A DNA stretch of 64,000 bases from Nemertoderma westbladi (lineage: Eukaryota; Animalia; Xenacoelomorpha): the NCBI GenBank assembly GCA_032718475.1, contig JAUCBJ010007869.1, positions 1 to 64,000 of the forward strand, read 5' to 3'. Every line of letters begins with the position of its first letter. Position 1 is the stretch's first letter. Below are positions 216 to 64,000 of this stretch, piece by piece. Made by a program: the position numbers and the translations under genes. The notes under the pieces are model-generated. The model saw only the letters and a list, made by a program, of their open reading frames with translations, was not told the origin of the DNA and searched no databases.

Positions 216-299
216 AGAGGGGCGGCGAATTCACCTCACTCGACGCCGCCCTTACTGAATGTTTTTAAAAGATATTTCTTCCCACCTAGTTACCAATAC

Positions 300-2817
300 C
301 AATATTACCGGTCAGACAATCTAATTAATTGACTAACCGATATTATAATATAATTAATTGACTAACCGATATTATAATATAATTAATTGACTAACCAATA
401 TAATATAATTAATTGACTAACCAATATAATATAATTAATTGACTAACCAATATTATATAAATTAATTGACTAACCGATATTATATAATTAATTGACTAAC
501 CAATATTATATAATTAATTGACTAACCAATATTATATAATTAATTGACTAACCAATATAATATAATTAATTGACTAACCAATATTATATAAATTAATTGA
601 CTAACCGATATTATATAATTAATTGACTAACCAATATTATATAATTAATTGACTAACCAATATAATATAATTAATTGACTAACCAATATTATATAAATTA
701 ATTGACTAACCGATATTATATAATTAATTGACTAACCAATATTATATAATTAATTGATTAACCAATATTATATAAATTAATTGACTAACCAATATTATAT
801 GATTAATTGACTAACCAATATTATATAATTAATTGACTAACCAATATTCTATAAATTAATTGACTAACCAATATTATATAAATTAACTGACTAACCAATA
901 TTATATAATTAATTGACTAACCTATATTATATAAATTAATTGACTAACCGATATTATAATATAATTAATTGACTAACCAATATTATATAAATTAATTGAC
1001 TAACCGATATTATATAATTAATTGACTAACCAATATTATATAATTAATTGATTAACCAATATTATATAAATTAATTGACTAACCAATATTATTTAATTAA
1101 TTGACTAACCAATATTATATAATTAATTGACTAACCAATATTATATGATTAATTGACTAACCAATATTATATAATTAATTGACTAACCAATATTATATAA
1201 TTAATTGACTAACCAATATTATATAAATTAATTGACTAACCTATATTATATAAATTAATTGACTAACCAATATTATATAAATTAATTGACTAACCAATAT
1301 TATATAAATTAACTGACTAACCAATATTATATAATTAATTGACTAACCAATATTATATAAATTAACTGACTAACCAATATTATATAATTAATTGACTAAC
1401 CAATATTATATAATTAATTGACTAACCAATATTATATAAATTAATTGACTAACCTATATTATATAAATTAATTGACTAACCTATATTATATAAATTAATT
1501 GACTAACCAATATTATATAAATTAACTGACTAACCAATATTATATAATTAATTGACTAACCAATATTATATAAATTAATTGACTAACCAATAGTATATAA
1601 TTAATTGACTAACCAATATTATATAATTAATTGACTAACCAATATTCTATAAATTAATTGACTAACCAATATTATATAAATTAATTGACTAACCAATATT
1701 ATATAAATTAATTGACTAACCAATATTATATAATTAATTGACTAACCAATATTCTATAAATTAATTGACTAACCAATATTCTATAAATTAATTGACTAAC
1801 CAATATTATATAAATTAATTGAGTTAACCAATATTATATAATTAATTGACTAACCAATATTATATAAATTAATTGACTAACCAATATTATATAAATTAAT
1901 TGACTAACCAATATTATATAAATTAATTGACTAACCAATATTATATAATTAATTGACTAACCAATATTATATAAATTAATTGACTAATCAATATTATATA
2001 AATTAACTGACTAACCAATATTATATAATTAATTAACGAACCAATATTCTATAAATTAATTGACTAACCAATATTATATAATTAATTGACTAACCAATAT
2101 TATATAAATTAATTGACTAACCAATATTATATAAATTAACTGACTAACCAATATTATATAAATTAACTGACTAACCAATATTATATAAATTAATTGACTA
2201 ACCAATATTATATAATTAATTGACTAACCAATATTCTATAAATTAATTGACTAACCAATATTATATAATTAATTGACTAACCAATATTATATAATTAATT
2301 GACTAACCAATATTATATAAATTAATTGACTACCAATATTATATAAATTAATTGACTAACCAATATTATATAAATTAATTGACTAACCAATATTATATAA
2401 TTAATTGACTAACCAATATTATATAAATTAATTGACTAACCAATATTATATAATTAATTGACTAACCAATATTATATAAATTAATTGACTAACCAATATT
2501 ATATAATTAATTGACTAACCAATATTATATAATTAATTGACTAACCAATATTATATAATTAATTGACTAACCAATATTATATAAATTAATTGACTAACCA
2601 ATATTCTATAAATTAATTGACTAACCAATATTATATAATTAATTGACTAACCAATATTATATAATTAATTGACTAACCAATATTATATAATTAATTGACT
2701 AACCAATATTATATAAATTAATTGACTAACCAATATTATATAAATTAATTGACTAACCAATATTATATAATTAATTGACTAACCAATTTTATATAAATTA
2801 ATTGACTAACCAATATT
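300..2817 (-). repeat. ~28-30 bp AT-rich satellite (~85 copies) built from a filamin 5' splice site
   Basis: Minus-strand unit AATATTG|GTTAGTCAATTAATT(T)ATAT is the last 7 nt of exon 2811-2960 plus the intron start. The distal end (300-330) is a degenerate 31-nt copy of the exon end (2811-2840). Confidence 0.93.
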
Positions 2818-2960
2818 ACCGTTCGACAATCTAATTAATTTACAAGGTTCTTCTGTACCGCTTGGAGAAGCTATTGTGGATTCTAGAACACTAAGATCGG
2901 TCTCGTTTATCCGTAAGGCCACCTCGTTAGCGCTATTTATAGCGATCTGTCGTCTCCGAT
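2811..2960 (-). CDS. Filamin internal exon (Ig18-like), 150 nt, phase 1-1
   Basis: ttattttag|AT...ATTG|gttagt. Translates (D)RRRQIAINSANEVALRINETDLSVLESTIASPSGTEEPCKLIRLSNGNI(G), resembling FLNA ...[36 protein letters not shown] (recalled), and continues exon 54717-54890 in frame. Confidence 0.92.
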
Positions 2961-3017: not shown

Positions 3018-6000
3018 TATACACTATTATACACTGCCATACTACACTGTTATACGACGTCATACACTATTATACACTGCCATACTACACTGTTATACGA
3101 CGTCATACACTATTATACACTGCCATACTACACTGTTATACGACGTCATACACTATTATATACTGCCATACTACACTGTTATACGACGTCATACACTATT
3201 ATACACTGCCATACTACACTGTTATACGACGTCATACACTATTATATACTGCCATACTACACTGTTATACGACGTCATACACTATTATACACTGCCATAC
3301 TACACTGTTATACGACGTCATACACTATTATACACTGCCATACTACACTGTCATACGACGTCATACACTATTATACACTGCCATACTACACTGTTATACG
3401 ACGTCATACACTATTATACACTGCCATACTACACTGTTATACGACGTCATACACTATTATACACTGCCATACTACACTGTCATACGACGTCATACACTAT
3501 TATACACTGCCATACTACACTGTTATACGACGTCATACACTATTATACACTGCCATACTACACTGTTATACGACGTCATACACTATTATACACTGCCATA
3601 CTACACTGTTATACGACGTCATACACTATTATACACTGCCATACTACACTGTTATACGACGTCATACACTATTATACACTGCCATACTACACTGTTATAC
3701 GACGTCATACACTATTATACACTGCCATACTACACTGTTATACGACGTCATACACTATTATACACTGCCATACTACACTGTTATACGACGTCATACATTA
3801 TTATACACTGCCATACTACACTGTTATACGACGTCATACACTATTATACACTGCCATACTACACTGTTATACGACGTCATACTGCCATACTACAATATAA
3901 TACGACGTCATACACTATTATACACTGCCATACTACACTGTTATACGACGTCATACACTATTATACACTGCCATACTACACTGTTATACGACGTCATACA
4001 CTATTATACACTGCCATACTACACGGTTATACGACGTCATACACTATTATACACTGCCATACTACACTGTTATACGACGTCATACACTATTATACACTGC
4101 CATACTACACTGTTATACGACGTCATACACTATTATACACTGCCATACTACACTGTTATACGACGTCATACACTATTATACACTGCCATACTACACTGTT
4201 ATACGACGTCATACACTATTATACACTGCCATACTACACTGTTATACGACGTCATACACTATTATACACTGCCATACTACACTGTTATACGACGTCATAC
4301 ACTATTATACACTGCCATACTACACTGTTATACGACGTCATGCACTGTTATACACTGCCTACTACACTGTTATACGACGTCATACACTATTATATACTGC
4401 CATACTACACTGTTATACGACGTCATACACTATTATACACTGCCATACTACACTGTTATACGACGTCATGCACTGTTATACACTGCCATACTACACTGTT
4501 ATACGACGTCATACACTATTATATACTGCCATACTACACTGTTATACGACGTCATGCACTGTTATACACTGCCATACTACACTGTTATACGACGTCATAC
4601 ACTATTACATACTGCCATACTACACTGTTATACGAAGTCATACACTATTATACACTGCCATACTACACTGTTATACGACGTCATAAACTATTATACACTG
4701 CCATACTACACTGTTATACGACGTCATGCACTGTTATACACTGCCATACTACACTGTTATACGACGTCATACACTATTATACACTGCCATACTACACTGT
4801 TATACGACGTCATGCACTGTTATACACTGCCATACTACACTGTTATACGACGTCATACACTATTACATACTGCCATACTACACTGTTATACGAAGTCATA
4901 CACTATTATACACTGCCATACTACACTGTTATACGACGTCATACACTATTATACACTGCCATACTACACTGTTATACGACGTCATACACTATTACACTGC
5001 CATACTACACTGTTATACGACGTCATACACTATTATACACTGCCATACTACACTGTTATACGACGTCATACACTATTACATACTGCCATACTACACTGTT
5101 ATACGAAGTCATACACTATTATACACTGCCATACTACACTGTTATACGACGTCATACACTATTATACACTGCCATACTACACTGTTATACGACGTCATAC
5201 ACTATTATACACTGCCATACTACACTGTTATACGACGTCATACACTATTATACACTGCCATACTACACTGTTATACGACGTCATACACTATTATACACTG
5301 CCATACTACACTGTTATACGACGTCATGCACTGTTATACACTGCCATACTACACTGTTATACGACGTCATACACTATTATACACTGCCATACTACACTGT
5401 TATACGACGTCATACACTATTATACACTGCCATACTACACGTTTATACGACGTCATACACTATTACACACTGCCATACTACACGGTTATACGACGTCATA
5501 CACTATTATACACTGCCATACTACACTGTTATACGACGTCATACACTATTATACACTGCCATACTACACTGTTATACGACGTCATACACTATTATACACT
5601 GCCATACTACACTGTTATACGACGTCATACACTATTATACACTGCCATACTACACTGTTATACGACGTCATACACTATTATACACTGCCATACTACACTG
5701 TTATACGACGTCATACACTATTATACACTGCCATACTACACTGTTATACGACGTCATACACTATTATACACTGCCATACTACACTGTTATACGACGTCAT
5801 ACACTATTATACACTGCCATACTACACTGTTATACGACGTCATACACTATTATACACTGCCATACTACACTGTTATACGACGTCATACACTATTATACAC
5901 TGCCATACTACACTGTTATACGACGTCATACACTATTATACACTGCCATACTACACTGTTATACGACGTCATACACTATTATACACTGCCATACTACACT

Positions 6001-7230
6001 GTTATACGACGTCATACACTATTATACACTGCCATACTACACTGTTATACGACGTCATACACTATTATACACTGCCATACTACACTGTTATACGACGTCA
6101 TACACTATTATACACTGCCATACTACACTGTTATACGACGTCATACACTATTATACACTGCCATACTACACTGTTATACGACGTCATACACTATTATACA
6201 CTGCCATACTACACTGTTTATACGACGTCATACACTATTATACACTGCCATACTACACTGTTATACGACGTCATACACTATTATACACTGCCATACTACA
6301 CTGTTATACGACGTCATACACTATTATACACTGCCATACTACACTGTTATACGACGTCATACACTATTATACACTGCCATACTACACTGTTATACGACGT
6401 CATACTGCCATACTACAATATGATACGACGTCATACACTATTATACACTGCCATACTACACTGTTATACGACGTCATACACTATTATACACTGCCATACT
6501 ACACTGTTATACGACGTCATACACTATTATACACTGCCATACTACACTGTTATACGACATCATACACTATTATACACTGCCATACTACACTGTTATACGA
6601 CGTCATACACTATTATACACTGCCATACTACACTGTCATACGACGTCATACACTATTATACACTGCCATACTACACTGTTATACGACATCATACACTATT
6701 ATACACTGCCATACTACACTGTTATACGACGTCATACACTATTATACACTGCCATACTACACTGTTATACGACGTCATACACTATTATACACTGCCATAC
6801 TACACTGTTATACGACGTCATACACTATTATACACTGCCATACTACACTGTTATACGACGTCATACACTATTATACACTGCCATACTACACTGTTATACG
6901 ACGTCATACACTATTATACACTGCCATACTACACTGTTATACGACGTCATACACTATTATACACTGCCATACTACACTGTTATACGACGTCATACACTAT
7001 TATACACTGCCATACTACACTGTTATACGACGTCATACACTATTATACACTGCCATACTACACTGTTATACGACGTCATACACTATTATACACTGCCATA
7101 CTACACTGTTATACGACGTCATACACTATTATACACTGCCATACTACACTGTTATACGACGTCATACACTATTATACACTGCCATACTACACTGTTATAC
7201 GACGTCATACACTATTATACACTGCCATAC
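3018..7230. repeat. 43-bp satellite (~98 copies)
   Basis: Unit ATACACTATTATACACTGCCATACTACACTGTTATACGACGTC, highly homogeneous. Starts ~55 bp from the filamin acceptor at 2961. Confidence 0.97.
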
Positions 7231-7244
7231 TCAAAAGAATATAG

Positions 7245-16817: not shown

Positions 16818-16940
16818 TATACTACACAGTTATACGACGTCATACACTATTATACACTGCCATACTACACTGTTATACGACGTCATACACTATTATATAC
16901 TCAACACTGCCATACTACACGGTTATACGACGTCATACAT
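16818..16940. repeat. ~3 copies of the same 43-bp satellite as 3018-7230
   Basis: Same unit directly at the LINE 5' end, suggesting the LINE inserted into the array. Confidence 0.9.
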
Positions 16941-16949
16941 TATATGTTC

Positions 16950-26739: not shown

Positions 26740-26869
26740 CGGCAGACCGGCAAAAGGTACCTGTGAGTCGGTAGCGGTAGGCGAATATATTCCCCATATC
26801 GGTAATGACCTGAATCCGTACCAGTGGGGGCAATTTTTTTGTCGATTTTCCCTATGCCACTTATGCTTT

Positions 26870-34178: not shown

Positions 34179-34194
34179 ATGGTTGACAGCAGCT

Positions 34195-34742: not shown

Positions 34743-34781
34743 AACATGAGTTTTGCTACGGAGGGGAATGCTAGATGATTG

Positions 34782-35720: not shown

Positions 35721-37788
35721 GAAATAAAATCACAAGATAAATTTATTTTATATTAATGAAAACAAGAGTTACAAGGTTGTAGGAGAGAAATAGCTAGTAA
35801 TTAAAACAAAATTAAACCTTGAAATTTACTCTGAAAATTTAGTCACGAATTTAAATTTAAATTTAGTAAACTTCTCTATTAATATTGTATAAATAATTAA
35901 TATTCTAGAAATATACAATATACAATATTACATATTATAATACAATATGTATTATAAGAAGAAATAAAATAATACGGTCAGACGGTAAGTTCTACGGTTG
36001 TTCTATTATAATTACTGTATTATTATAGATACAGTAAGAGTACCGGTATTTGAGTAACGTATTAAAAATGCCTCGAGAATAGTGAAAAAAGTTATACTTT
36101 TTTCCCATGTAATAAATAATTATTTGTTGGAATTTCTAAAATTTGTCCTGGCGATTTGGTAGTGCGATATTAATTCCACACAAATAAATAAAATAGGTAT
36201 TGTAAGAAATTAAAAAAAAATTATAATATTTAATGCAATATTATTGATTATTATTAATGTCATTAATTTGAAATGTAATTCGACCATAATTTTGCTCTTA
36301 CAAAAAAAGTGACAAATATCAGTATATCGATCCACTAAGAACATTACATTTGTAATTAAGATTTAACATAAACATACAGTAGAGTAGGCCTATTACTGTA
36401 TTAACCTTATTACATTATTTTGCCTTACTTCCGTTTCCGTACTTAGTACATTGTACATGTACGTAAATAGTTATTGTTACAGTACATTATGCCAACTTAA
36501 CAGTGTTCTGGTGAATTACTCGTAACGCTGCAAAGTACCGTAATCAATGACATGGAAACAACTTCAATGACCGTATTCTGATCTGACCTCTATGTCAGTA
36601 TACTCATTATATGTCATTCATAGTCCTCTATGAATCTTTCTGACTGTATTTTACTATAATCTAATACGTAACTCAAATACTCTCACTGTATATCTATAAT
36701 AATACAGTAATTATAATAAAACAACAAACCTCCCCGTATTATTTTATTTAAATAAATGATTAATATTGACTTGCGGCGAGGTGTCCGATAATTTGCGGCG
36801 AAATGGCATTTATAGTGAGACACCTCGCCGCAAGACACCTCGCCGCACATTATCTGCGGCGAGATGACTTGCGGCGAAGTGGCAGTGCGGCGAGGTGACC
36901 AGCACCCGTTAGTTGGCAGTGCAGACTTCACTTCACATTCTGATAATATTTATTGACATTCTAGTTTTCGAAATATACTGTAGTTTTATATAGAAGAGTA
37001 GAATACCGGTATACAGTACACAGTCTGACAGTACAGCAGTCGGCAGTAGTAAATGACAGTTATGTACATTGACATCAACTGATCCGATCAACAGCATATC
37101 CCGATCGGGATATATTACCTTACTGCCTTAGGCTATACCGGTAAGGGTAAATCCCGATCGGGATATATTTATATATCCCGATCGGGATAGGGAACCCTAC
37201 TTTCTGTGTTAAACAGGATTAACGTGATTGGTTGCTGCTTAGTACTGAAGTCTGGTAGTAGCAGCTTTCTCCAACAACATTACTTGTTTTATACAAAATG
37301 GAATAAATGTTAACTGGAAAAGCCACGATCTAAGCACCAGTGCAGTGTCCAGTCTATAGGGCATAGGCCTACCGCAATACCGGCAGACCGGTACTTGTAC
37401 AGCTGTACGCTATAGGCCTACAGCCTGACGCTGACAGTACAGTGACAGCTGAAAACTGCTACTGGAATATACACTGACTGACTGATTACTGGATTACATG
37501 ACTGCCTGATCCTACCTGCTGACCTGCCTACAGTTCTATGTATGATGTACCTATGTGCGTACAGCTGTACAGTCCAACATACAGACATACACATCTACAT
37601 GCACCAACGCAACGGTACCGGTAGCGGTAGGCATAGGCAGATAGGCCTAATGCATGTAATGCAAATAATTCCTGACTGCTTGATTACAGCTAAATACTGA
37701 AATAAAGGTTGTTACCGTACTGGCAGACTGGTGTTGAGCACGGCGGTAATGTCTGAATGTAGGGACTGTCTAAAACCCGGGCTCTGCC

Positions 37789-45135: not shown

Positions 45136-47349
45136 TTATGAATATCCTTCACTACATTCTCTATAGTTCATTGCCGCGATCCCGATTACAGTTGCCAGAA
45201 TTGCCGCAAGAAGACAATAATCCATAAAAGTACCCTTCCCGAAGTCAATATTTATTGTCGTCACTTTCTCCGCTGTCACGTTATCACAATTGTTCTGGTT
45301 TATCAGTGTTGCTGTAAGTTTCTTTGGCAAAAAGCCAAACTTATTTTGGTTTATCGGTGTTGCTGTGACATTCTTTAGTAAATTATCAACCTTATTTTGG
45401 CTTACCGGTGTTGTTGTAAATTTCTTTGGTATATTCTCAACCTTATTTTGGCTTATAGGTGTTGCTGTGACTTTCTTTGGTAAATTCTCAACCTTATTTT
45501 GGCTTATAGGTGTTGCTGTGACTTTCTTTGGTAAATTCTCAACCTTATTTTGGCTTACCGGTGTTGTTGTAACTTTCTTTGGTATATTCTCAACCATATT
45601 TTGGCTTATAGGTGTTGCTGTGACTTTCTTTGGTATATTCTCAACCTTATTTTGGTTTATCGGTGTTGCTGTGATTTTCTTAGGAAAATTTTCAACCTTA
45701 TTTTGGCTTATAGGTGTTGCTGTGACTTTCTTTGGTAAATTGTCAAACTTATTTTGGTTTATCGGTGTTGCTGTGGTTTTCTTACGTAAATTCTCAAACT
45801 TATTTTGGCTTATAGGTGTTGCTGTGACTTTCTTTGGTAAATTCTCAACCTTATTTTGGCTTATAGGTGTTGTTGTGACTTTCTTTGGTAAATTATCAAA
45901 CTTATTTTGGTTTATCGGTGTTGCTGTGGTTTTCTTTGGTATATTCTCAACCTTATTTTGGCTTATTGATGTTGCTGCGAATTTCTTTGGTAAATTCTCA
46001 ACCTTATTTTGGCTTATAGGTGTTGCTGTGGTTTTCTTTGGAAAATCCTCAAACTTATTTTGGTTTATCGGTGTTGCTGTGGTTTTCTTAGGTAAATTTT
46101 TAACCTTATTTTGGCTTATAGGTGTTGCTGTGATTTTCTTTGGTATATTCTCAACCTTATCTTGGCTTATAGGTGTTGCTGTGGCTTTCTTCTGAAAATT
46201 CTCTACCTTATTTTGGCTTACCGGTGTTGTTGTGACTTTCTTAGGTAAATTCTCAACCTTATGTTGGCTTATAGGTGTTGTTGTAACTTTCTTTGGTAAA
46301 TTCTCAAACTGGTTTTGGTTTTTCTGAGTCGTTGGAGGTTCTCTCGCTAGATTACCAGATTTCGTTTCGTTAATTGATGTATCAGTTAATACCCCAGTCG
46401 GCTTTCCCTTTGTCATCTCTGGGGCGGCTCCAATTTTCTCTAAACCCCTATTTAGTAGTGAAATTTCCGTATGACTTTCTCCACTTCCGTTAATTGATTT
46501 TGATTTCTTATCCGGATAATTTTGATTCGATAACTGTCTGGGTAACTGTCCCAACTGTCTGGAACTGTCTGTAACTGTCTGGGCCGTTTTGGGTCCATAA
46601 ATTTCCAGCCATCTTTTATTATTTATACGATAACCGGCGATTCTGAGGTTTTCATCACTATCGAGTCCTTGTGCAGTGGCCATGATATGTTTATCTGATG
46701 GACTGTCTTTTCGAGGAGATATAATTTTTGGAAAGGGACGATTATCTGAAATTCTAGAACTGTCATTCTGGTACTCCAATACAACTCCAGTGCCTGCGAT
46801 ATCGGTTGAAATCCCATTGTTTTTTGTACGAGAATCTTCTGTTGTTTTAGGAACAGGAGTTTTATCGGGAGGTTTAGTAATACTTCCTCGGAACTCAACT
46901 CTGACAAGTTTTCCCCTCTCATCTCCCATCTCTGTTGTTACCCAATAGTTTTCCTTTGACGACTTATTATTTTCGTTATCATCAACCATTTTTGCGGCTT
47001 TGGGCTTTGTGACTTTGGGCTTTTCTTTCTCAATGAAAGGTACCGGTATTTGGTTTTCTTTGTTTGCGGTTGCTATGGATTTTTCTACTTTTCTATGAGA
47101 GATTGGGGGAATGTTTTTGACATTATCTCCAAATTGTTCCTTCATCTTCAAACCAATTTTGTCTCCCACTGGAAGTGACGTTAATGTCTTTTTACTTTTA
47201 CTGCTTGTTTCTTTAGATGGTGGAACATTTTTGCTGTAGTTTTGGACGATGTCCCATGTTGGTATCTCTGTTCTCAGCCTATGGGAACTCAGAACGGCTG
47301 GCTGACGTAGACATTTTCTCATACAAGGAAGAACTCGTAAGGAATACAT
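45136..47349 (-). CDS. Uncharacterised 737-aa intronless protein: basic presequence-like N-terminus, ~20 x 17-aa repeats, C-terminal transmembrane helix
   Basis: ATG ORF; paralog of 50285-51088; 51-bp repeat (KVENLPKKVTATPISQN) at ~45290-46320; TM segment YCLLAAILATVIGIAAM. Confidence 0.72.
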   Translation of the reverse strand: MYSLRVLPCMRKCLRQPAVLSSHRLRTEIPTWDIVQNYSKNVPPSKETSSKSKKTLTSLPVGDKIGLKMKEQFGDNVKNIPPISHRKVEKSIATANKENQIPVPFIEKEKPKVTKPKAAKMVDDNENNKSSKENYWVTTEMGDERGKLVRVEFRGSITKPPDKTPVPKTTEDSRTKNNGISTDIAGTGVVLEYQNDSSRISDNRPFPKIISPRKDSPSDKHIMATAQGLDSDENLRIAGYRINNKRWLEIYGPKTAQTVTDSSRQLGQLPRQLSNQNYPDKKSKSINGSGESHTEISLLNRGLEKIGAAPEMTKGKPTGVLTDTSINETKSGNLAREPPTTQKNQNQFENLPKKVTTTPISQHKVENLPKKVTTTPVSQNKVENFQKKATATPISQDKVENIPKKITATPISQNKVKNLPKKTTATPINQNKFEDFPKKTTATPISQNKVENLPKKFAATSISQNKVENIPKKTTATPINQNKFDNLPKKVTTTPISQNKVENLPKKVTATPISQNKFENLRKKTTATPINQNKFDNLPKKVTATPISQNKVENFPKKITATPINQNKVENIPKKVTATPISQNMVENIPKKVTTTPVSQNKVENLPKKVTATPISQNKVENLPKKVTATPISQNKVENIPKKFTTTPVSQNKVDNLLKNVTATPINQNKFGFLPKKLTATLINQNNCDNVTAEKVTTINIDFGKGTFMDYCLLAAILATVIGIAAMNYRECSEGYS

Positions 47350-47831
47350 TATGTCTTCTAGGGAATTGGTTGGGAATTATGGCGAGGGTGTTGGTGATTG
47401 CTTGTGACAGCCTTTATTATTGTACAGTATAATGTTTAAATATAGTCATTCTTGGTGGGTTTGTTTGATGGTCGGTTGTTTGTTTGTTAGCTACAGTTCA
47501 GCATTCCTAACTAATTATAATTACATACCTAAACTAAAGTACTTACATTTAACGTTCTGAAAAATATGTTCTAGAATATTACAGTTCCTATTGACATCAG
47601 CGACAAATTTATAATATATTAAACGCAGTTTATATTACTTTAATAGCGGTAAAACAAGCTACATTCAAAAAAATAAAACCGCGTAAAGTACCCTATGTCT
47701 CAGGCCCTATGATCGTTCTATACAGATACAGTATATAAATCTGTTAAAATAAAATGACAGTATATCGACAAAACATAATATATCAATACATTAATGAATG
47801 GGAGAATCTTTTAGGCTCGTTAAGCCAAGGA

Positions 47832-49644: not shown

Positions 49645-50284
49645 TAATATATAATATATATGTATATAATGCAGCTGCAACACAGCATGCCGATAGTAGT
49701 AGTAGTATTAAGTACGAATTATGATTTCTGATATCCCTTTATTATTTTGGATGAGTTATTTTTTCAAGTACTTTCTTTACATTACATTAGTACTTTACCT
49801 TATGATGCGATGCGTATATTTTACTTTATATTACAGTGAGTACACTAACACAGTAGACTGGACATAGCCAAATAAAACAAGGAATTGGATTTAAAACCCA
49901 AGTGAACGTAAAGTAGATACAATATGAAGTGAACTCTTAGGTCCCCTCTCACACGGAGCAACAAGCTGCACCGTGTGGGGGTGTGGGGGGGGGGGGGGGG
50001 GCATAGGCCTACACTCAAAAATATATAAATAATTTACATTAGGATCAATAGGAACTATAATATTCTAGAACATATTTTTCAGAACGTTCAATGTAAGTAC
50101 TTTAGTTTAGGTATGTAATTATAATTAGTTAGGAATGCTGAACTGTAGCTAACAAACAAACAACCGACCATCAAACAAACCCACCAAGAATGACTATATT
50201 TAAACATTATGCAATAATAAAGGCTGTCACAAGCAATCACCAACACCCTCGCCATAATTCCCAACCAATTCCCTAGAAGACATA

Positions 50285-51088
50285 ATGTATTCCTTACGAG
50301 TTCTTCCTTGTATGAGAAAATGTCTACGTCAGCCAGCCGTTCTGAGTTCCCATAAGCTGAGAACAGAGATACCAACATGGGACATCGTCCAAAACTACAG
50401 CAAAAATGTTCCACCATCTAAAGAAACAAGCAGTAAAAGTAAAAAGTTAGAAGATAATTGCAAAAATGTCCAGGAAAAAGAACAAAAATCTATGACGACC
50501 GCAAACAAAGAAAACCAAACGAGTAACATTCTGAAACGCAGTCGCCAAGCCGACGCTGAAGATACCGAAAATAATAAATCGTTAGGAGAAAATTTCTGGG
50601 TCATTACAGAGATGGGAGATGAGACGGGAAAACTTGTTAGAGTCGAGTTCAGGGAAAATATTACTAAACCACCCGATAAAACTCATGTTCCTAAAACAAC
50701 AGATCCTTCTTCTGTTCCTAAACCAACAACAGATGCTCCTCATGTTCCTAAAACAACAACAGCTCCTACTACAAATAAACAATTCATCACAACGGAAATG
50801 GCAGAGTTTCGTAAGGATTCCAGCGACATTATGTCAGATAAGCATATCATGGCCATTGCACGCGAACTTGATAGCAAAGATATACTCAGAATCAAAGACA
50901 ACGTCTCAGAAAAACATACAGATTCGTCGATAAAGAAGTCTGATAACCCAAAGATGGGACCCAAGGCACTAATTAAGAACATAAATAAAGGTAGTTTTAA
51001 AGATTACTGTCTCCTTGCGGTAATTCTGGCAACTGTAATCGGAATCGCGGCAATGAACTATAGAGAATATAGCGAAGAACATTCATAA
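50285..51088 (+). CDS. Uncharacterised 267-aa intronless paralog of 45136-47349
   Basis: First ~54 aa are nearly identical; shared EMGDE.GKLVRVEFR..ITKPPDKT, SDKHIMA and C-terminal DYCLLA.ILATVIGIAAMNYRE blocks. Confidence 0.72.
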   Translation: MYSLRVLPCMRKCLRQPAVLSSHKLRTEIPTWDIVQNYSKNVPPSKETSSKSKKLEDNCKNVQEKEQKSMTTANKENQTSNILKRSRQADAEDTENNKSLGENFWVITEMGDETGKLVRVEFRENITKPPDKTHVPKTTDPSSVPKPTTDAPHVPKTTTAPTTNKQFITTEMAEFRKDSSDIMSDKHIMAIARELDSKDILRIKDNVSEKHTDSSIKKSDNPKMGPKALIKNINKGSFKDYCLLAVILATVIGIAAMNYREYSEEHS

Positions 51089-52752: not shown

Positions 52753-52956
52753 TTGGTGCCTGAGGTTGGGAAGGGGTGCAACCAGGTTGTATCATAGTAA
52801 CATAAAGTATTCTAGAAACTAATATTATTAATAATCGATATAAATAGATAATGTAGGAATGTAGGTATATAATTATTTGTTGTAGACTTAAAGTACCGAT
52901 AAATATTGATACACAATAATACAAAATATGGGCATACAGATAAATGCGATATTGCA

Positions 52957-53795
52957 GAAGTTTGGGAACCAGTACAGCTACAGCACAAACTCAATAGTAC
53001 GAAAGTTAGGGAACCAGTACAGCACAAACTCAATAGTACGAAAGTTAGGGAACCAGTACAGCACAAACTCAATAATACGAAAGTTTGGGAACCAGTACAG
53101 CACAAACTCAATAGTACGAAAGTTTGGGAACCAGTACAGCACAAACTCAATAGTAAGAAAGTTTGGGAACCAGTACAGCTACAGCACAAACTCAATAGTA
53201 AGAAAGTTTGGGAACCAGTACAGCTACAGCACAAACTCAATAGTACGAAAGTTTGGGAACCAGTACAGCACAAACTCAATAGTACGAAAGTTAGGGAACC
53301 AGTACAGCACAAACTCAATAATACGAAAGTTTGGGAACCAGTACAGCACAAACTCAATAGTACGAAAGTTTGGGAACCAGTACAGCACAAACTCAATAGT
53401 AAGAAAGTTTGGGAACCAGTACAGCTACAGCACAAACTCAATAGTACGAAAGTTTGGGAACCAGTACAGCACAAACTCAATAGTACGAAAGTTTGGGAAC
53501 CAGTACAGCACAAACTCAATAGTAAGAAAGTTTGGGAACCAGTACAGCACAAACTCAATAGTAAGAAAGTTTGGGAACCAGTACAGCTACAGCACAAACT
53601 CAATAGTACGAAAGTTTGGGAACCAGTACAGCACAAACTCAATAGTACGAAAGTTTGGGAACCAGTACAGCACAAACTCAATAATACGAAAGTTTGGGAA
53701 CCAGTACAGCTACAGCACAAACTCAATAGTACGAAAGTTTGGGAACCAGTACAGCACAAACTCAATAGTACGGAAGTTTGGGAACCAGTACAGCA
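52957..53795. repeat. 39/45-bp minisatellite (~21 copies)
   Basis: Unit AAGTTTGGGAACCAGTACAG(CTACAG)CACAAACTCAATAGTACGA. Confidence 0.93.
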
Positions 53796-54384
53796 CTAGT
53801 AAAACGTCAGATACAATAACAACAGATAGGGTTTACAAAAATGGAAGAAGGGAAATGTATGAGAGTGTAAAAGCAAGAATCTCTGATATTATAACAAGAA
53901 GGAGAGTTTTGGCAAGGGAAACATCAGTTGGTGGAGAGCTGTACGATGGTAGACCGTTCGCTACGACTGAGGAAGCGGTGTTAGAACCAGCGCAACGTTT
54001 ATTGGAGGCCAGAAAGGGATACGAGTTAACAGTAATCTTGGGATTTATAGTTGCTGCAATTATAGCAGCTGCAGTGATGCGGTGGAGGTGGGGCAAAGGC
54101 GAAGCGGGAATACGAGTTACTGAACATGAGAACAAAATCCGAGACAGGAAACGGAGGGGCAGGAATAGGGAGACGGACAGATGGAGGACCGGGTCTATAG
54201 GAACTGATCCCAAATAGATACCACTACAGTCCGCTATTCGGTATTCAATTGCACGCAATTTACAATAATTATTATATTAAATTATTATGGTACTAAAACA
54301 TATTTGTTAGAGAAAGGCAAATTTACGCTTTTCTAATCTTAGGATTTTTATTATTTATTACAAGTTAGACAAAGAACCCTGGTT

Positions 54385-54756
54385 GTGTTTCACAAATAAT
54401 ACCAAACTCACCCATAATTTTAGCTGTAAACGGACTTCCTGGGATGTGTTTCATCAATAATACCAAACTCACCCATAATATTAGCTGTAAACGGACTCCC
54501 TGGGACATGTTTCGTCAATAATACAAAACTCACCAGTAATTTTAGCTGTAAACGGACTCCCTGGGACATGTTTCGTCAATAATACAAAACTCACCAGTAA
54601 TTTTAGCTGTAAACGGACTCCCTGGGATGAGTTTCGTCAATAATACAAAACTCACCAGTAATTTTAGCTGTAAACGGACTCACTGGGATGTGTTTCGTCA
54701 ATAATACAAAACTCACCAGTAATTTTAGCCGTAAACGGACTCCCTGGGATGTGTTT
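54385..54756 (-). repeat. 61-bp tandem repeat (6 copies) spanning a filamin 5' splice site
   Basis: Each unit has ~38 nt of the exon end (...GGGAGTCCGTTTACAGCTAAAATTACTG) plus GTGAGTTTTGTATTATTGAC. Divergence rises with distance from the exon. Confidence 0.93.
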
Positions 54757-54890
54757 CTCGGCGAATTTCACTGTAATTTTGTACTCGCCGGGTAAGGTAG
54801 GGGTGTAGGTGACCGAACATGTGCCGTTCTTGTTGTCTAGACAACGTAGCTCCGCCTTTGATGGACCTTCTATAGCCAATGAAAGACCAC
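54717..54890 (-). CDS. Filamin internal exon (Ig17-like, second half), 174 nt, phase 1-1
   Basis: cag|GT...ACTG|gtgagt; translates [58 protein letters not shown], a canonical filamin repeat. Confidence 0.96.
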
Positions 54891-55617
54891 CTGTGATGAA
54901 TAACCATGACGACTATAAGTGCGATCTGGGAACCTGTCTCTACAGGTCAGGTCAGGTATTCTAGGTCATTGATCAAGAAAACTTGCCACCTCCATGCAGC
55001 ATAAAGGAGGTGCCACCTGTAGCTGCATAGACCCTCTTACTAGGGCAAATCTGGTCCTGTAACTAGGACCCCCTTCGTTCTGGGATAAGGACGCCCTTGG
55101 TCCTGGATTAAGGACCCATATACTTAGCTGCAGGGGTATATGGCCTGGCCAGGCAGATGGTGATCTACCAATGGCTGGTCAGGAGTAGAGTGTTCCATGT
55201 CCACTCTGAGAGCACTTCACTGCGACCTGCACCTGGCAGCAGGGGTACAGGGCATGGCCCAGCAGATGACCTGCACAGCCAATGGTGGGTCATGTGCGCC
55301 AGAGTAGATATGGGTGATGGGCCTCATATCTGACTCCACTGCGACACCCACCATGTGGAATGGCAAACCAGGGTGTGGTATTTGTCCCGAGAGCTGACTC
55401 GTCAAAAAAGCACCCCCCAACCACCACTATGGATTACAATAGTAATGCGGAGGTCCAGCCACTAGAGGCCAGTGGAATGAATGGACACAATCGGCCTCAC
55501 AGGCGTAAACCTCAGTTATTAAAACCTCAGTAAAATGGTTATTCGGGCTACAGTAATACCCGCTTCTCTGCAAAGACCCTAACATAAAACTACCGTAACT
55601 AGGTAAACGACACTAAC

Positions 55618-55769
55618 CAGCTCCAGCTTCCTTCGTAACTATAGTAAACTCTGCAGGAACACCCGCCTGTCCTGTAGTTAGCCCAGGTCCATGGGCAGTA
55701 ATGGAGCCGGCCTGCAGGGAGTCCACCCAGAAATGGAACGGGGAATCCTGCACGCTCACACCGTTATAT
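55618..55769 (-). CDS. Filamin internal exon (Ig16 end/Ig17 start), 152 nt
   Basis: tttacag|A...GCTG|gttagt; translates YNGVSVQDSPFHFWVDSLQAGSITAHGPGLTTGQAGVPAEFTIVTKEAGA and joins the next exon in frame. Confidence 0.94.
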
Positions 55770-58700
55770 CTGTAAAGGTAAATAGTGGGTGGGGATTCCT
55801 TTAATACTAGTTATACAAACTGGAATCCTGCACGCTCACACCGTTATATCTGTAAAGGTAAATAGTGGGTGGAGATTCCTTTAATACTAGTTATACAAAC
55901 TGGAATCCTGCACGCTCACACCGTTATATCTGTAAAGGTAAATAGTGGGTGGAGATTCCTTTAATACTAGTTATACAAACTGGAATCCTGCACGCTCACA
56001 CCGTTATATCTGTAAAGGTAAATAGTGGGTGGAGATTCCTTTAATACTAGTTATACAAACTGGAATCCTGCACGCTCACACCGTTATATCTGTAAAGGTA
56101 AATAGTGGGTGGAGATTCCTTTAATACTAGTTATACAAACTGGAATCCTGCACGCTCACACCGTTATATCTGTAAAGGTAAATAGTGGGTGGAGATTCCT
56201 TTAATACTAGTTATACAAACTGGAATCCTGCACGCTCACAGCGTTATATCTGTAAAGGTAAATAGTGGGTGGAGATTCCTTTAATACTAGTTATACAAAC
56301 TGGAATCCTGCACGCTCACACCGTTATATCTGTAAAGGATAATAGTGGGTGGAGATTCCTTTAATACTAGTTATACAAACTGGAATCCTGCACGCTCACA
56401 CCGTTATATCTGTAAAGGTAAATAGTGGGTGGAGATTCCTTTAATACTAGTTATACAAACTGGAATCCTGCACGCTCACAGCGTTATATCTGTAAAGGTA
56501 AATAGTGGGTGGAGATTCCTTTAATACTAGTTATACAAACTGGAATCCTGCACGCTCACACCGTTATATCTGTAAAGGATAATAGTGGGTGGAGATTCCT
56601 TTAATACTAGTTATACAAACTGGAATCCTGCACGCTCACACCGTTATATCTGTAAAGGATAATAGTGGGTGGAGATTCCTTTAATACTAGTTATACAAAC
56701 TGGAATCCTGCACGCTCACACCGTTATATCTGTAAAGGTAAATAGTGGGTGGAGATTCCTTTAATACTAGTTATACAAACTGGAATCCTGCACGCTCACA
56801 GCGTTATATCTGTAAAGGTAAATAGTGGGTGGAGATTCCTTTAATACTAGTTATACAAACTGGAATCCTGCACGCTCACAGCGTTATATCTGTAAAGGTA
56901 AATAGTGGGTGGAGATTCCTTTAATACTAGTTATACAAACTGGAATCCTGCACGCTCACAGCGTTATATCTGTAAAGGTAAATAGTGGGTGGAGATTCCT
57001 TTAATACTAGTTATACAAACTGGAATCCTGCACGCTCACTCCGTAATATCTGTAAAGGTAAATAGTGGGTGGAGATTCCTTTAATACTAGTTATACAAAC
57101 TGGAATCCTGCACGCTCACAGCGTTATATCTGTAAAGGTAAATAGTGGGTGGAGATTCCTTTAATACTAGTTATACAAACTGGAATCCTGCACGCTCACA
57201 GCGTTATATCTGTAAAGGTAAATAGTGGGTGGAGATTCCTTTAATACTAGTTATACAAACTGGAATCCTGCACGCTCACTCCGTAATATCTGTAAAGGTA
57301 AATAGTGGTTGGAGATTCCTTTAATACTAGTTATACAAACTGGAATCCTGCACGCTCACACCGTTATATCTGTAAAGGTAAATAGTGGGTGGAGATTCCT
57401 TTAATACTAGTTATACAAACTGGAATCCTGCACGCTCACACCGTTATATCTGTAAAGGATAATAGTGGGTGGAGATTCCTTTAATACTAGTTATACAAAC
57501 TGGAATCCTGCACGCTCACAGCGTAATATCTGTAAAGGTAAATAGTGGGTGGAGATTCCTTTAATACTAGTTATACAAACTGGAATCCTGCACGCTCACA
57601 GCGTTATATCTGTAAAGGTAAATAGTGGGTGGAGATTCCTTTAATACTAGTTATACAAACTGGAATCCTGCACGCTCACAGCGTTATATCTGTAAAGGTA
57701 AATAGTGGGTGGAGATTCCTTTAATACTAGTTATACAAACTGGAATCCTGCACGCTCACAGCGTTATATCTGTAAAGGTAAATAGTGGGTGGAGATTCCT
57801 TTAATACTAGTTATACAAACTGGAATCCTGCACGCTCACTCCGTAATATCTGTAAAGGTAAATAGTGGGTGGAGATTCCTTTAATACTAGTTATACAAAC
57901 TGGAATCCTGCACGCTCACAGCGTTATATCTGTAAAGGTAAATAGTGGGTGGAGATTCCTTTAATACTAGTTATACAAACTGGAATCCTGCACGCTCACA
58001 GCGTTATATCTGTAAAGGTAAATAGTGGGTGGAGATTCCTTTAATACTAGTTATACAAACTGGAATCCTGCACGCTCACACCGTTATATCTGTAAAGGAT
58101 AATAGTGGGTGGAGATTCCTTTAATACTAGTTATACAAACTGGAATCCTGCACGCTCACACCGTTATATCTGTAAAGGTAAATAGTGGTTGGAGATTCCT
58201 TTAATACTAGTTATACAAACTGGAATCCTGCACGCTCACACCGTTATATCTGTAAAGGATAATAGTGGGTGGAGATTCCTTTAATACTAGTTATACAAAC
58301 TGGAATCCTGCACGCTCACACCGTTATATCTGTAAAGGATAATAGTGGGTGGAGATTCCTTTAATACTAGTTATACAAACTGGAATCCTGCACGCTCACA
58401 CCGTTATATCTGTAAAGGTAAATAGTGGGTGGAGATTCCTTTAATACTAGTTATACAAACTGGAATCCTGCACGCTCACAGCGTTATATCTGTAAAGGTA
58501 AATAGTGGGTGGAGATTCCTTTAATACTAGTTATACAAACTGGAATCCTGCACGCTCACAGCGTTATATCTGTAAAGGTAAATAGTGGGTGGAGATTCCT
58601 TTAATACTAGTTATACAAACTGGAATCCTGCACGCTCACAGCGTTATATCTGTAAAGGTAAATAGTGGGTGGAGATTCCTTTAATACTAGTTATACAAAC

Positions 58701-61700
58701 TGGAATCCTGCACGCTCACTCCGTAATATCTGTAAAGGTAAATAGTGGGTGGAGATTCCTTTAATACTAGTTATACAAACTGGAATCCTGCACGCTCACA
58801 GCGTTATATCTGTAAAGGTAAATAGTGGGTGGAGATTCCTTTAATACTAGTTATACAAACTGGAATCCTGCACGCTCACAGCGTTATATCTGTAAAGGTA
58901 AATAGTGGGTGGAGATTCCTTTAATACTAGTTATACAAACTGGAATCCTGCACGCTCACTCCGTAATATCTGTAAAGGTAAATAGTGGTTGGAGATTCCT
59001 TTAATACTAGTTATACAAACTGGAATCCTGCACGCTCACACCGTTATATCTGTAAAGGTAAATAGTGGGTGGAGATTCCTTTAATACTAGTTATACAAAC
59101 TGGAATCCTGCACGCTCACACCGTTATATCTGTAAAGGATAATAGTGGGTGGAGATTCCTTTAATACTAGTTATACAAACTGGAATCCTGCACGCTCACA
59201 GCGTAATATCTGTAAAGGTAAATAGTGGGTGGAGATTCCTTTAATACTAGTTATACAAACTGGAATCCTGCACGCTCACTCCGTAATATCTGTAAAGGTA
59301 AATAGTGGTTGGAGATTCCTTTAATACTAGTTATACAAACTGGAATCCTGCACGCTCACACCGTTATATCTGTAAAGGATAATAGTGGGTGGAGATTCCT
59401 TTAATACTAGTTATACAAACTGGAATCCTGCACGCTCACTCCGTAATATCTGTAAAGGTAAATAGTGGGTGGAGATTCCTTTAATACTAGTTATACAAAC
59501 TGGAATCCTGCACGCTCACAGCGTTATATCTGTAAAGGTAAATAGTGGGTGGAGATTCCTTTAATACTAGTTATACAAACTGGAATCCTGCACGCTCACA
59601 CCGTTATATCTGTAAAGGTAAATAGTGGGTGGAGATTCCTTTAATACTAGTTATACAAACTGGAATCCTGCACGCTCACACCGTTATATCTGTAAAGGTA
59701 AATAGTGGGTGGAGATTCCTTTAATACTAGTTATACAAACTGGAATCCTGCACGCTCACACCGTTATATCTGTAAAGGATAATAGTGGGTGGAGATTCCT
59801 TTAATACTAGTTATACAAACTGGAATCCTGCACGCTCACTCCGTAATATCTGTAAAGGTAAATAGTGGGTGGAGATTCCTTTAATACTAGTTATACAAAC
59901 TGGAATCCTGCACGCTCACAGCGTTATATCTGTAAAGGTAAATAGTGGGTGGAGATTCCTTTAATACTAGTTATACAAACTGGAATCCTGCACGCTCACA
60001 CCGTTATATCTGTAAAGGTAAATAGTGGGTGGAGATTCCTTTAATACTAGTTATACAAACTGGAATCCTGCACGCTCACAGCGTTATATCTGTAAAGGTA
60101 AATAGTGGGTGGAGATTCCTTTAATACTAGTTATACAAACTGGAATCCTGCACGCTCACAGCGTTATATCTGTAAAGGTAAATAGTGGGTGGAGATTCCT
60201 TTAATACTAGTTATACAAACTGGAATCCTGCACGCTCACACCGTTATATCTGTAAAGGATAATAGTGGGTGGAGATTCCTTTAATACTAGTTATACAAAC
60301 TGGAATCCTGCACGCTCACAGCGTTATATCTGTAAAGGTAAATAGTGGGTGGAGATTCCTTTAATACTAGTTATACAAACTGGAATCCTGCACGCTCACA
60401 GCGTTATATCTGTAAAGGTAAATAGTGGGTGGAGATTCCTTTAATACTAGTTATACAAACTGGAATCCTGCACGCTCACAGCGTTATATCTGTAAAGGTA
60501 AATAGTGGGTGGAGATTCCTTTAATACTAGTTATACAAACTGGAATCCTGCACGCTCACAGCGTTATATCTGTAAAGGTAAATAGTGGGTGGAGATTCCT
60601 TTAATACTAGTTATACAAACTGGAATCCTGCACGCTCACAGCGTTATATCTGTAAAGGTAAATAGTGGGTGGAGATTCCTTTAATACTAGTTATACAAAC
60701 TGGAATCCTGCACGCTCACACCGTTATATCTGTAAAGGATAATAGTGGGTGGAGATTCCTTTAATACTAGTTATACAAACTGGAATCCTGCACGCTCACA
60801 GCGTTATATCTGTAAAGGTAAATAGTGGGTGGAGATTCCTTTAATACTAGTTATACAAACTGGAATCCTGCACGCTCACACCGTTATATCTGTAAAGGAT
60901 AATAGTGGGTGGAGATTCCTTTAATACTAGTTATACAAACTGGAATCCTGCACGCTCACAGCGTTATATCTGTAAAGGTAAATAGTGGGTGGAGATTCCT
61001 TTAATACTAGTTATACAAACTGGAATCCTGCACGCTCACAGCGTTATATCTGTAAAGGTAAATAGTGGGTGGAGATTCCTTTAATACTAGTTATACAAAC
61101 TGGAATCCTGCACGCTCACACCGTTATATCTGTAAAGGTAAATAGTGGGTGGAGATTCCTTTAATACTAGTTATACAAACTGGAATCCTGCACGCTCACA
61201 CCGTTATATCTGTAAAGGTAATAGTGGGTGGAGATTCCTTTAATACTAGTTATACAAACTGGAATCCTGCACGCTCACAGCGTTATATCTGTAAAGGTAA
61301 ATAGTGGGTGGAGATTCCTTTAATACTAGTTATACAAACTGGAATCCTGCACGCTCACAGCGTTATATCTGTAAAGGTAAATAGTGGGTGGAGATTCCTT
61401 TAATACTAGTTATACAAACTGGAATCCTGCACGCTCACACCGTTATATCTGTAAAGGTAAATAGTGGGTGGAGATTCCTTTAATACTAGTTATACAAACT
61501 GGAATCCTGCACGCTCACAGCGTTATATCTGTAAAGGTAAATAGTGGGTGGAGATTCCTTTAATACTAGTTATACAAACTGGAATCCTGCACGCTCACAG
61601 CGTTATATCTGTAAAGGTAAATAGTGGGTGGAGATTCCTTTAATACTAGTTATACAAACTGGAATCCTGCACGCTCACAGCGTTATATCTGTAAAGGTAA

Positions 61701-64000
61701 TAGTGGGTGGAGATTCCTTTAATACTAGTTATACAAACTGGAATCCTGCACGCTCACAGCGTTATATCTGTAAAGGTAAATAGTGGGTGGAGATTCCTTT
61801 AATACTAGTTATACAAACTGGAATCCTGCACGCTCACAGCGTTATATCTGTAAAGGTAAATAGTGGGTGGAGATTCCTTTAATACTAGTTATACAAACTG
61901 GAATCCTGCACGCTCACAGCGTTATATCTGTAAAGGTAAATAGTGGGTGGAGATTCCTTTAATACTAGTTATACAAACTGGAATCCTGCACGCTCACACC
62001 GTTATATCTGTAAAGGTAAATAGTGGGTGGAGATTCCTTTAATACTAGTTATACAAACTGGAATCCTGCACGCTCACACCGTTATATCTGTAAAGGTAAA
62101 TAGTGGGTGGAGATTCCTTTAATACTAGTTATACAAACTGGAATCCTGCACGCTCACAGCGTTATATCTGTAAAGGTAAATAGTGGGTGGAGATTCCTTT
62201 AATACTAGTTATACAAACTGGAATCCTGCACGCTCACACCGTTATATCTGTAAAGGTAAATAGTGGGTGGAGATTCCTTTAATACTAGTTATACAAACTG
62301 GAATCCTGCACGCTCACACCGTTATATCTGTAAAGGTAAATAGTGGGTGGAGATTCCTTTAATACTAGTTATACAAACTGGAATCCTGCACGCTCACACC
62401 GTTATATCTGTAAAGGTAAATAGTGGGTGGAGATTCCTTTAATACTAGTTATACAAACTGGAATCCTGCACGCTCACAGCGTTATATCTGTAAAGGTAAA
62501 TAGTGGGTGGAGATTCCTTTAATACTAGTTATACAAACTGGAATCCTGCACGCTCACACCGTTATATCTGTAAAGGTATAATAGTGGGTGGAGATTCCTT
62601 TAATACTAGTTATACAAACTGGAATCCTGCACGCTCACACCGTTATATCTGTAAAGGTAAATAGTGGGTGGAGATTCCTTTAATACTAGTTATACAAACT
62701 GGAATCCTGCACGCTCACACCGTTATATCTGTAAAGGTAAATAGTGGGTGGAGATTCCTTTAATACTAGTTATACAAACTGGAATCCTGCACGCTCACAC
62801 CGTTATATCTGTAAAGGTAAATAGTGGGTGGAGATTCCTTTAATACTAGTTATACAAACTGGAATCCTGCACGCTCACACCGTTATATCTGTAAAGGTAA
62901 ATAGTGGGTGGAGATTCCTTTAATACTAGTTATACAAACTGGAATCCTGCACGCTCACACCGTTATATCTGTAAAGGTAAATAGTGGGTGGAGATTCCTT
63001 TAATACTAGTTATACAAACTGGAATCCTGCACGCTCACACCGTTATATCTGTAAAGGTAAATAGTGGGTGGAGATTCCTTTAATACTAGTTATACAAACT
63101 GGAATCCTGCACGCTCACACCGTTATATCTGTAAAGGATAATAGTGGGTGGAGATTCCTTTAATACTAGTTATACAAACTGGAATCCTGCACGCTCACAG
63201 CCGTTATATCTGTAAAGGTAAATAGTGGGTGGAGATTCCTTTAATACTAGTTATACAAACTGGAATCCTGCACGCTCACAGCGTTATATCTGTAAAGGTA
63301 TAATAGTGGGTGGAGATTCCTTTAATACTAGTTATACAAACTGGAATCCTGCACGCTCACAGCGTTATATCTGTAAAGGTAAATAGTGGGTGGAGATTCC
63401 TTTAATACTAGTTATACAAACTGGAATCCTGCACGCTCACAGCGTTATATCTGTAAAGGTAAATAGTGGGTGGAGATTCCTTTAATACTAGTTATACAAA
63501 CTGGAATCCTGCACGCTCACAGCGTTATATCTGTAAAGGTAAATAGTGGGTGGAGATTCCTTTAATACTAGTTATACAAACTGGAATCCTGCACGCTCAC
63601 AGCGTTATATCTGTAAAGGTAAATAGTGGGTGGAGATTCCTTTAATACTAGTTATACAAACTGGAATCCTGCACGCTCACAGCGTTATATCTGTAAAGGT
63701 AAATAGTGGGTGGAGATTCCTTTAATACTAGTTATACAAACTGGAATCCTGCACGCTCACAGCGTTATATCTGTAAAGGTAAATAGTGGGTGGAGATTCC
63801 TTTAATACTAGTTATACAAACTGGAATCCTGCACGCTCACAGCGTTATATCTGTAAAGGTAAATAGTGGGTGGAGATTCCTTTAATACTAGTTATACAAA
63901 CTGGAATCCTGCACGCTCACAGCGTTATATCTGTAAAGGTAAATAGTGGGTGGAGATTCCTTTAATACTAGTTATACAAACTGGAATCCTGCACGCTCAC
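55742..64000 (-). repeat. 80-bp satellite (>=103 copies, runs off the window) built from a filamin 3' splice site
   Basis: Minus-strand unit GTTTGTATAACTAGTATTAAAGGAATCTCCACCCACTATTTACCTTTACAG|ATATAACGGTGTGAGCGTGCAGGATTCCA; its first 28 post-AG nt are the start of exon 55618-55769. Confidence 0.97.

What the first reader, a model, noticed from the sequence alone, without database searches (positions are those of the whole stretch)
55742..64000. Splice-junction satellite: >100 near-identical decoy 3' splice sites upstream of a filamin exon
Seen: every 80-bp unit contains the full pyrimidine tract plus CAG and the first 28 nt of the exon, and only the last unit continues into the real exon. Each unit also reads as a 29-nt pseudo-exon followed by a 51-nt GTTTGT...CAG segment; including one pseudo-exon shifts the frame into a stop (AAT ATA ACG GTG TGA). 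Inference: the spliceosome must skip >8 kb of identical acceptors, presumably by exon definition, or remove the array stepwise, so copy number could tune productive splicing or NMD. With the two donor arrays, 3 of the 6 splice sites visible here are amplified, which suggests a process that targets splice junctions rather than chance. This is the best candidate for an undescribed system in the window.
Basis: partly seen in the sequence, partly recalled or inferred. Interest (0 to 1): 0.85.

Follow-up and report, generated by a model that had tools for sequence, protein, structure and literature searches.

The report
Giant splice-acceptor "mirage" minisatellite in filamin
In an animal's filamin gene the 80 bases spanning one intron-exon border are copied head-to-tail at least 103 times, a very large case of a repeat type already described in lancelets and humans, and the extra splice signals are likely ignored by the cell.

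Summary
An 80-bp array (55742 to beyond 64000, at least 103 units, 1.8% mean divergence) copies 52 nt of intron end plus the first 28 nt of an intact filamin exon. Two of the five other visible splice sites carry donor arrays. Short-read contigs from two samples in two studies hold the unit at about 60-210 times single-copy depth, so it is not an assembly artefact.

It is not an undescribed system. Junction-spanning minisatellites are the lancelet "mirages" and the human F7 and ABCA7 VNTRs, and this scan has noted them in other genomes. What stands out is the size on the acceptor side: 102 decoys against 3-6 units in lancelet globin.

Stepwise removal has no sequence support (no AG|GT), and the pseudo-exon donor is ordinary. 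Every decoy use gives a premature stop. Most likely exon definition picks the last copy, and the array drifts by unequal exchange. The 3-of-6 excess is nominally significant here (P 0.0003-0.02) but was selected after the fact. No genome or RNA was available to test enrichment or splice-site use.

The parts
55742..64000 (-). 80-bp acceptor-spanning minisatellite, at least 103 units (52 nt intron + first 28 nt of exon A); continues past the window end
   Evidence: high-depth unit contigs in runs X1, X2, X3
55742..55821 (-). Terminal unit carrying the authentic CAG acceptor (AG at 55771-55770); the only unit of its variant
55618..55769 (-). Filamin exon A, 152 nt, open frame, donor CTG|GTTAGT
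   Evidence: Pfam PF00630 E 3e-6
54717..54890 (-). Filamin exon B, 174 nt, open frame
   Evidence: Pfam PF00630 E 7e-17; PDB filamin hits
54377..54757 (-). 61-bp donor-spanning array, 6.3 units (last 41 nt of exon B + 20 nt of intron); five in-register decoy donors, each leading to a stop
2811..2960 (-). Filamin exon C, 150 nt, open frame, after a 51.8-kb intron
   Evidence: tblastn; order A, B, C kept in homologues; no Pfam match on its own
322..2818 (-). 26-27-bp donor-spanning array, about 94 units, 88 GTTAGT copies; read-through stops at once
298..330 (-). Degenerate second copy of the last 30 nt of exon C plus GT at the far end of the 27-bp array; likely the relic of the first, longer duplication
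3019..7231 (.). 43-bp array of about 99 units that stops 59 bp short of the exon C acceptor and does not contain it; shows that 100-copy arrays also form off junctions here

Best explanation
This is a minisatellite whose 80-bp unit spans the intron-exon border of an intact filamin exon, likely born as an ordinary short tandem duplication and expanded by unequal exchange, with the spliceosome likely using only the last copy and rare errors predicted to be removed by nonsense-mediated decay. Shown: the unit content; any duplication across an acceptor leaves the last copy joined to a whole exon; block duplication inside the array; every decoy route ends in a stop. Inferred: the donor of exon A defines the nearest acceptor (152-nt exon). 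The next decoys would give exons of 232, 312, 392 nt and so on, so only the first one or two can compete. The other 100 have no usable donor partner, and their number should matter little for site choice.
For: Same architecture as amphioxus mirages, where Adh3 data and globin RT-PCR suggest normal splicing and edge units escape homogenisation (PMC3087553); the edge unit here is likewise unique. A 13-unit block recurs 21 units apart (56542 and 58222), longer than in any of 300 shuffles (max 10). The genome makes such arrays freely: 34 merged arrays cover 37% of the window, and a 99-unit array lies off any junction. The gene looks alive: three open exons, GT-AG ends, compatible phases, and the A-B join exact in 114 of 146 homologues with all three hits; the one exon difference listed in X3 is synonymous. 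Decoy read-through stops after 12-13 codons in 102 of 102; the pseudo-donor is ordinary; no YAG|GT. No special RNA fold (z 0.15) or DNA hairpin.
Against: No RNA evidence was available, so use of the last acceptor is assumed. Published acceptor-side cases have only 3-6 units. In duplicated globin splice sites one study found use of the copy proximal to the partner site, which on my reading would favour an upstream decoy, and another study found the opposite (as discussed in PMC1557585). Human 6-16 and CBS arrays do leak to the nearest pseudo-sites. Pure chance placement predicts 0.13 junction arrays and 3 are seen (P 0.0003; 0.005 without the focal array). The B-C join is 3-4 residues shorter than in most homologues. 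The exon-size limits behind the exon-definition argument are recalled; one search found no paper with my terms.
Confidence: 0.72

Rival explanations
1. Arrays are born or kept preferentially at exon edges by a real process, for example recombination or repair that starts in the conserved exon and slips where homology ends, or protection from deletion on the exon side. This concerns origin and is compatible with harmless splicing.
For: 3 of 6 sites: P 0.0002-0.004 by terminal-unit binomial and 0.0003 by Poisson-binomial; 2 of 5 without the focal array, P 0.005. Several amphioxus loci show it, and PMC3087553 calls the mechanism unclear. Both donor arrays end in a partial or degenerate copy of the exon sequence.
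Against: Six sites in a window picked because it looked striking. If only 10 kb of the window is old enough to count, P rises to 0.017, and to 0.067 without the focal array. An earlier, unchecked scan note reports no excess over chance in a wider sample of an annelid genome (e1-9992352). No genome is held here.
Confidence: 0.4
2. Array length acts as a dial on filamin output, by raising skipping of exon A (152 nt, frame-shifting) or use of the nearest decoys, both leading to decay.
For: ABCA7: a donor-containing VNTR with alleles of 837 and 9711 bp in one individual; longer alleles raise exon 19 skipping and lower expression (PMC5954066). Depth ratios differ between the two samples (60-118 vs about 200), which hints at length variation.
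Against: In ABCA7, decoy use and NMD did not change with length. Only the nearest one or two decoys can pair with the real donor at ordinary exon sizes (size limit recalled). No sign of selection on the units: 7 variable columns, none informative. Depth is a rough measure.
Confidence: 0.13
3. The array is removed stepwise, through recursive splicing or 51-nt mini-introns.
For: Each unit can be read as GT...AG of 51 nt.
Against: No AG|GT in the unit and no YAGGT in the whole array on the sense strand. Removing the 51-nt pieces would leave 29-nt pseudo-exons in the message, which hit a stop. The donor is ordinary.
Confidence: 0.03
4. The array is an assembly artefact, or sits in a dead filamin copy.
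For: Five single indel units lie in the outer part and may be read errors. No listed X3 contig bridges array and exon A.
Against: The unit is at about 60-210 times single-copy depth in three runs of two samples. The X1 exon contig ends 30 bases into the repeat, where a 31-mer graph must branch. Structured variant order. Exons are intact.
Confidence: 0.05

Closest known systems
Amphioxus 'mirage' minisatellites (Adh3, globins BflGb6 and BflGb9, troponin C, PGBD5); PMC3087553 and PMC3902484, passages read
   Same: Tandem copies of an exon-intron boundary. BflGb6 copies the 3' end of an intron plus the 5' part of the exon, exactly as here. Both acceptor and donor sides occur; concerted evolution with edge units left out; length differs between haplotypes.
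   Different: BflGb6 has 3-6 units of 150-160 bp at 81-100% identity; here at least 103 units at 98%. The host is not a lancelet: the three exons match Branchiostoma filamin at only 95 of 156 residues, no better than other phyla. Splicing was checked by RT-PCR there and not here.
Human ABCA7 intron-18 25-bp VNTR; PMC5954066, passages read
   Same: Splice site repeated in every unit; array up to about 10 kb; use of a decoy gives a frameshift and NMD substrate.
   Different: Donor side, not acceptor side; effects on splicing were measured there.
Human F7 IVS7 37-bp VNTR, with 6-16, CBS IVS13, lamin B2 and PDGF as listed in its Introduction; PMC1557585, abstract, Introduction and Discussion read
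   Same: First unit spans the exon-intron border; identical pseudo-sites stay silent or leak only to the nearest ones. A direct match for the two donor arrays in this window.
   Different: All donor-side and at most about 25 copies; the scanning rule found there (most upstream site wins) does not explain an acceptor array, where the last site must win.
Recursive and dual-specific AG|GT splice sites, e.g. polyubiquitin UBC; PMC10809524, passages read
   Same: Splice signals repeated in a tandem array.
   Different: Those need AG|GT; this unit has CAG|AT, so it cannot act as a ratchet point.

Membership tests
Mirage-type (junction-spanning) minisatellite | Head-to-tail unit that spans an exon-intron boundary | tested here: met
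   52 nt intron + 28 nt exon per unit
Mirage-type (junction-spanning) minisatellite | Terminal unit holds the authentic site and the exon stays intact | tested here: met
   Open 152-nt exon with Filamin match, joined exactly to exon B in 114 of 146 homologues
Mirage-type (junction-spanning) minisatellite | Units keep AG or GT signals | tested here: met
   CTTTACAG in 103 of 103 units
Mirage-type (junction-spanning) minisatellite | Concerted evolution with the edge unit excluded | tested here: met
   1.8% divergence, a repeated 13-unit block, unique terminal variant
Mirage-type (junction-spanning) minisatellite | Length differs between haplotypes or individuals | tested here: inconclusive
   Depth ratios 60-118 (sample S1) vs 194-211 (sample S2), but contig depth is rough
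Mirage-type (junction-spanning) minisatellite | Normal splicing is undisturbed | not testable with these tools
   No run on record as RNA was listed
Recursive or dual-specific splice array | AG|GT motif in the unit on the sense strand | tested here: not met
   0 YAGGT in 55770-64000, minus strand
Splicing-modulating VNTR (ABCA7 type) | Array length correlates with exon skipping or expression | not testable with these tools
   Needs paired genotype and RNA
Transposon-borne or dispersed satellite | Unit found at other places or inside a mobile element | tested here: inconclusive
   No other copy of the 80-bp or 61-bp unit in the window and the unit holds filamin exon sequence; rest of the genome not held

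The most novel reading that the evidence does not exclude
In this animal a process acting at exon edges amplifies splice junctions genome-wide into arrays of 100 or more copies, and the 8-16 kb acceptor array is a length-variable dial on exon A skipping and filamin dose; it would be a natural test of how the last of 100 identical acceptors is chosen during transcription.
Probability: 0.12. Interest if true: 0.65.

Novelty: new member of a known kind. Interest (0 to 1): 0.3.

Why it matters
As a kind it is known. Its value is as an extreme natural test: at least 102 near-identical acceptors are transcribed over 8 kb before the real one, about 17 times the largest acceptor-side copy number in the passages I read (6 units, BflGb6). 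If RNA shows clean use of the last site, that is strong in-vivo support for exon definition over first-come scanning at 3' splice sites. If a genome-wide count confirms the junction excess, it would bear on how mirages arise, which PMC3087553 calls unclear.

Tried and rejected
Whole genome: none held, so no genome-wide test. RNA: no RNA holder listed; X6, a guessed RNA run of another organism, laid only on the intron transposon; X4 likewise; X5 laid nothing. None of these blanks says anything about expression. X3 has no listed contig over exon A, which proves nothing. RNA structure masking the decoys: z 0.15, and the same local hairpin forms round real and decoy sites. DNA hairpin as a trigger: z between -1.3 and +0.5 for the three junction arrays, within the range of 11 other arrays. 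Missing microexon in the B-C intron: 7 weak candidates of 9-15 nt, none resembling the homologous linker; 4 of 65 homologous junctions caught by my pattern also lack the glycine. Placing the host: exon C search gave 0 hits among 20 candidates; exon A best hits reach about 65%; eIF4G 32-49% to the 120 listed proteins; 80-96 of 156 identities across 15 named animals. So it is an animal with no close named relative among the hits, lineage unresolved; no tree was built. One search was translated in the wrong frame, and one search put the exon C end at 2810 (corrected to 2811). Papers: Canestro 2002 not held, known only as cited. Searches for a genome-wide study of arrays at junctions listed none on the point; I saw only the listings, and PMC2812944 was not opened. 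Searches on duplicated acceptors and exon-size limits gave nothing I used. No supplements were read; those of PMC3087553 hold the unit alignments. Scan notes for this genome or this sequence: none.

Full report
Observation. TRF reports an 80-bp array of 103.2 copies at 98% from 55742 to the window end. The 103 full units form 13 variants, with 7 variable columns and 1.8% mean pairwise difference among the 98 units of 80 nt. On the minus strand each unit is 52 nt of intron ending in CTTTACAG, present in 103 of 103, plus the first 28 nt of an exon. Only the last unit continues into exon A (55769-55618, 152 nt, Pfam Filamin). Exon B (54890-54717) and exon C (2960-2811) follow. All three are open, have GT-AG ends and compatible phases. 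Of 387 proteins in the box, 146 hit all three exons; in 114 of these the A-B join is exact. The B-C join is 3-4 residues shorter than in 101 of the 146, and no convincing microexon fills the gap. The one exon difference listed for run X3 is synonymous. Exon B's donor sits in a 61-bp array (6.3 units) and exon C's donor in a 26-27-bp array (94 units), so 3 of 6 sites lie in arrays.

Is it real? Contigs of public short-read runs hold the unit at depth 1701 (X1), 2233 (X2) and 4990 (X3), against 19-29 for single-copy flanks. The ratios are 60-90, 118 and 194-211. X1 and X2 are one sample and may be the assembly's source; X3 is another sample and study. The X1 exon contig ends 30 bases into the repeat, where a 31-mer graph must branch. 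Contig depth is rough, but an array of the order of 100 copies exists outside this assembly.

How it grew. A 13-unit block recurs at 56542 and 58222, longer than in any of 300 shuffles of the unit order (max 10). The terminal unit has a private base that all 102 decoys lack. This is the pattern of unequal exchange with edge units left out, as described for amphioxus BflGb6 (PMC3087553, passages). The 27-bp donor array ends in a degenerate second copy of exon C's last 30 nt, which suggests a longer first duplication and later expansion of a shortened unit (inference). The genome makes arrays freely: 34 merged arrays cover 37% of the window, and a 99-unit 43-bp array stops 59 bp short of the exon C acceptor. 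No hairpin signal marks the junction arrays.

Splicing. Reading through from any decoy acceptor stops after 12-13 codons (102 of 102), one included pseudo-exon stops after 13 codons, and the in-register decoy donors of both donor arrays also lead to stops. The pseudo-donor CCA|GTTTGT matches 5 of 9 positions of a recalled donor consensus, as do 23% of 2844 GT sites outside the four masked arrays; the real donors match 6-7. There is no YAG|GT in the array, so recursive removal through AG|GT (PMC10809524, passages) has no substrate. Pairing the real donor with successive acceptors gives exons of 152, 232, 312 and 392 nt. From recalled exon-size limits, only the first one or two decoys can compete, so copy number should saturate. 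This step is inferred: no RNA run was listed. Against it, duplicated-site experiments on globin gave conflicting results (PMC1557585, Discussion), and some human donor arrays leak to the nearest pseudo-sites (Introduction).

Junction excess. The chance expectation is 0.13 junction arrays among 21; P(3 or more) is 0.0003, and P(2 or more) without the focal array is 0.005. If only 10 kb of the window is old enough to count, these become 0.017 and 0.067 (a binomial version gives 0.0002-0.004). The window was chosen after the fact and no genome is held. One unchecked scan note found no excess in a wider sample of another genome. The question stays open.

What is known. Tandem duplications of exon-intron boundaries were named mirages in amphioxus Adh3 (Canestro 2002, not held, seen only as cited). 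They occur in globins on both sides, with Adh3 data and RT-PCR suggesting normal splicing, and in troponin C and PGBD5 (PMC3902484, passages). Human donor-side cases include F7, 6-16, CBS, lamin B2 and PDGF and ABCA7, where an allele of 9711 bp is reported. There, length did not change decoy use or NMD but did raise skipping of the next exon and lower expression (PMC5954066, passages). I had this reading before consulting earlier scan notes; those notes report similar arrays in annelid, sea urchin and elephant shark genes, unchecked by me. The host is not a lancelet by protein identity (95 of 156 residues) and could not be placed. Four searches for a genome-wide study of such arrays listed none on the point.

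Verdict. A real and unusually large new member of a known kind; interest 0.3. The remaining interest is its size on the acceptor side and the untested junction excess.

Noticed in passing
window 19123-23811 (-): Uninterrupted 1562-aa eIF4G reading frame with eIF4E-binding, MIF4G, MA3 and W2 domains, nested in the 52-kb filamin intron on the same strand; GC3 0.72 against 0.35-0.50 for the filamin exons; 32-49% identity to listed animal eIF4Gs; holds a 21-bp coding repeat (22165-22485). Likely an intact retrocopy.
   Followed up: partly
window 26859-27062 (-): 52-bp array about 3 kb upstream of the eIF4G frame whose unit reads as acceptor, 22-nt segment ending in ATG, and a GTAAAT donor; could be a duplicated small upstream exon or chance.
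   Followed up: no
window 54941-55506: Very high-copy element inside the 726-nt intron between exons A and B (summed contig depth about 500,000 against about 25), also present in organism B.
   Followed up: no
window 45136-47376 (-), 50258-51088 (-), 52910-54217 (+): Related repeat-rich open frames ending in a hydrophobic stretch; the first has a 51-bp (17-aa) coding repeat of about 20 units and no convincing Pfam match. Probably parts of an unknown mobile element.
   Followed up: partly
window 31347-35729 (-), 40045-42522 (-), 13142-16187 (-), 29463-30227 (-): LINE-type endonuclease/reverse transcriptase elements, the first with a 1144-aa open frame, and a weak DDE transposase fragment.
   Followed up: partly
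window 16819-16945 and 3019-7231: The 43-bp satellite unit occurs again about 9.6 kb away, with LINE fragments between; perhaps one array split by insertions.
   Followed up: no
window 54714: One X3 contig differs at position +3 of the authentic exon B donor, which would make the real donor differ from its decoys in that sample.
   Followed up: no
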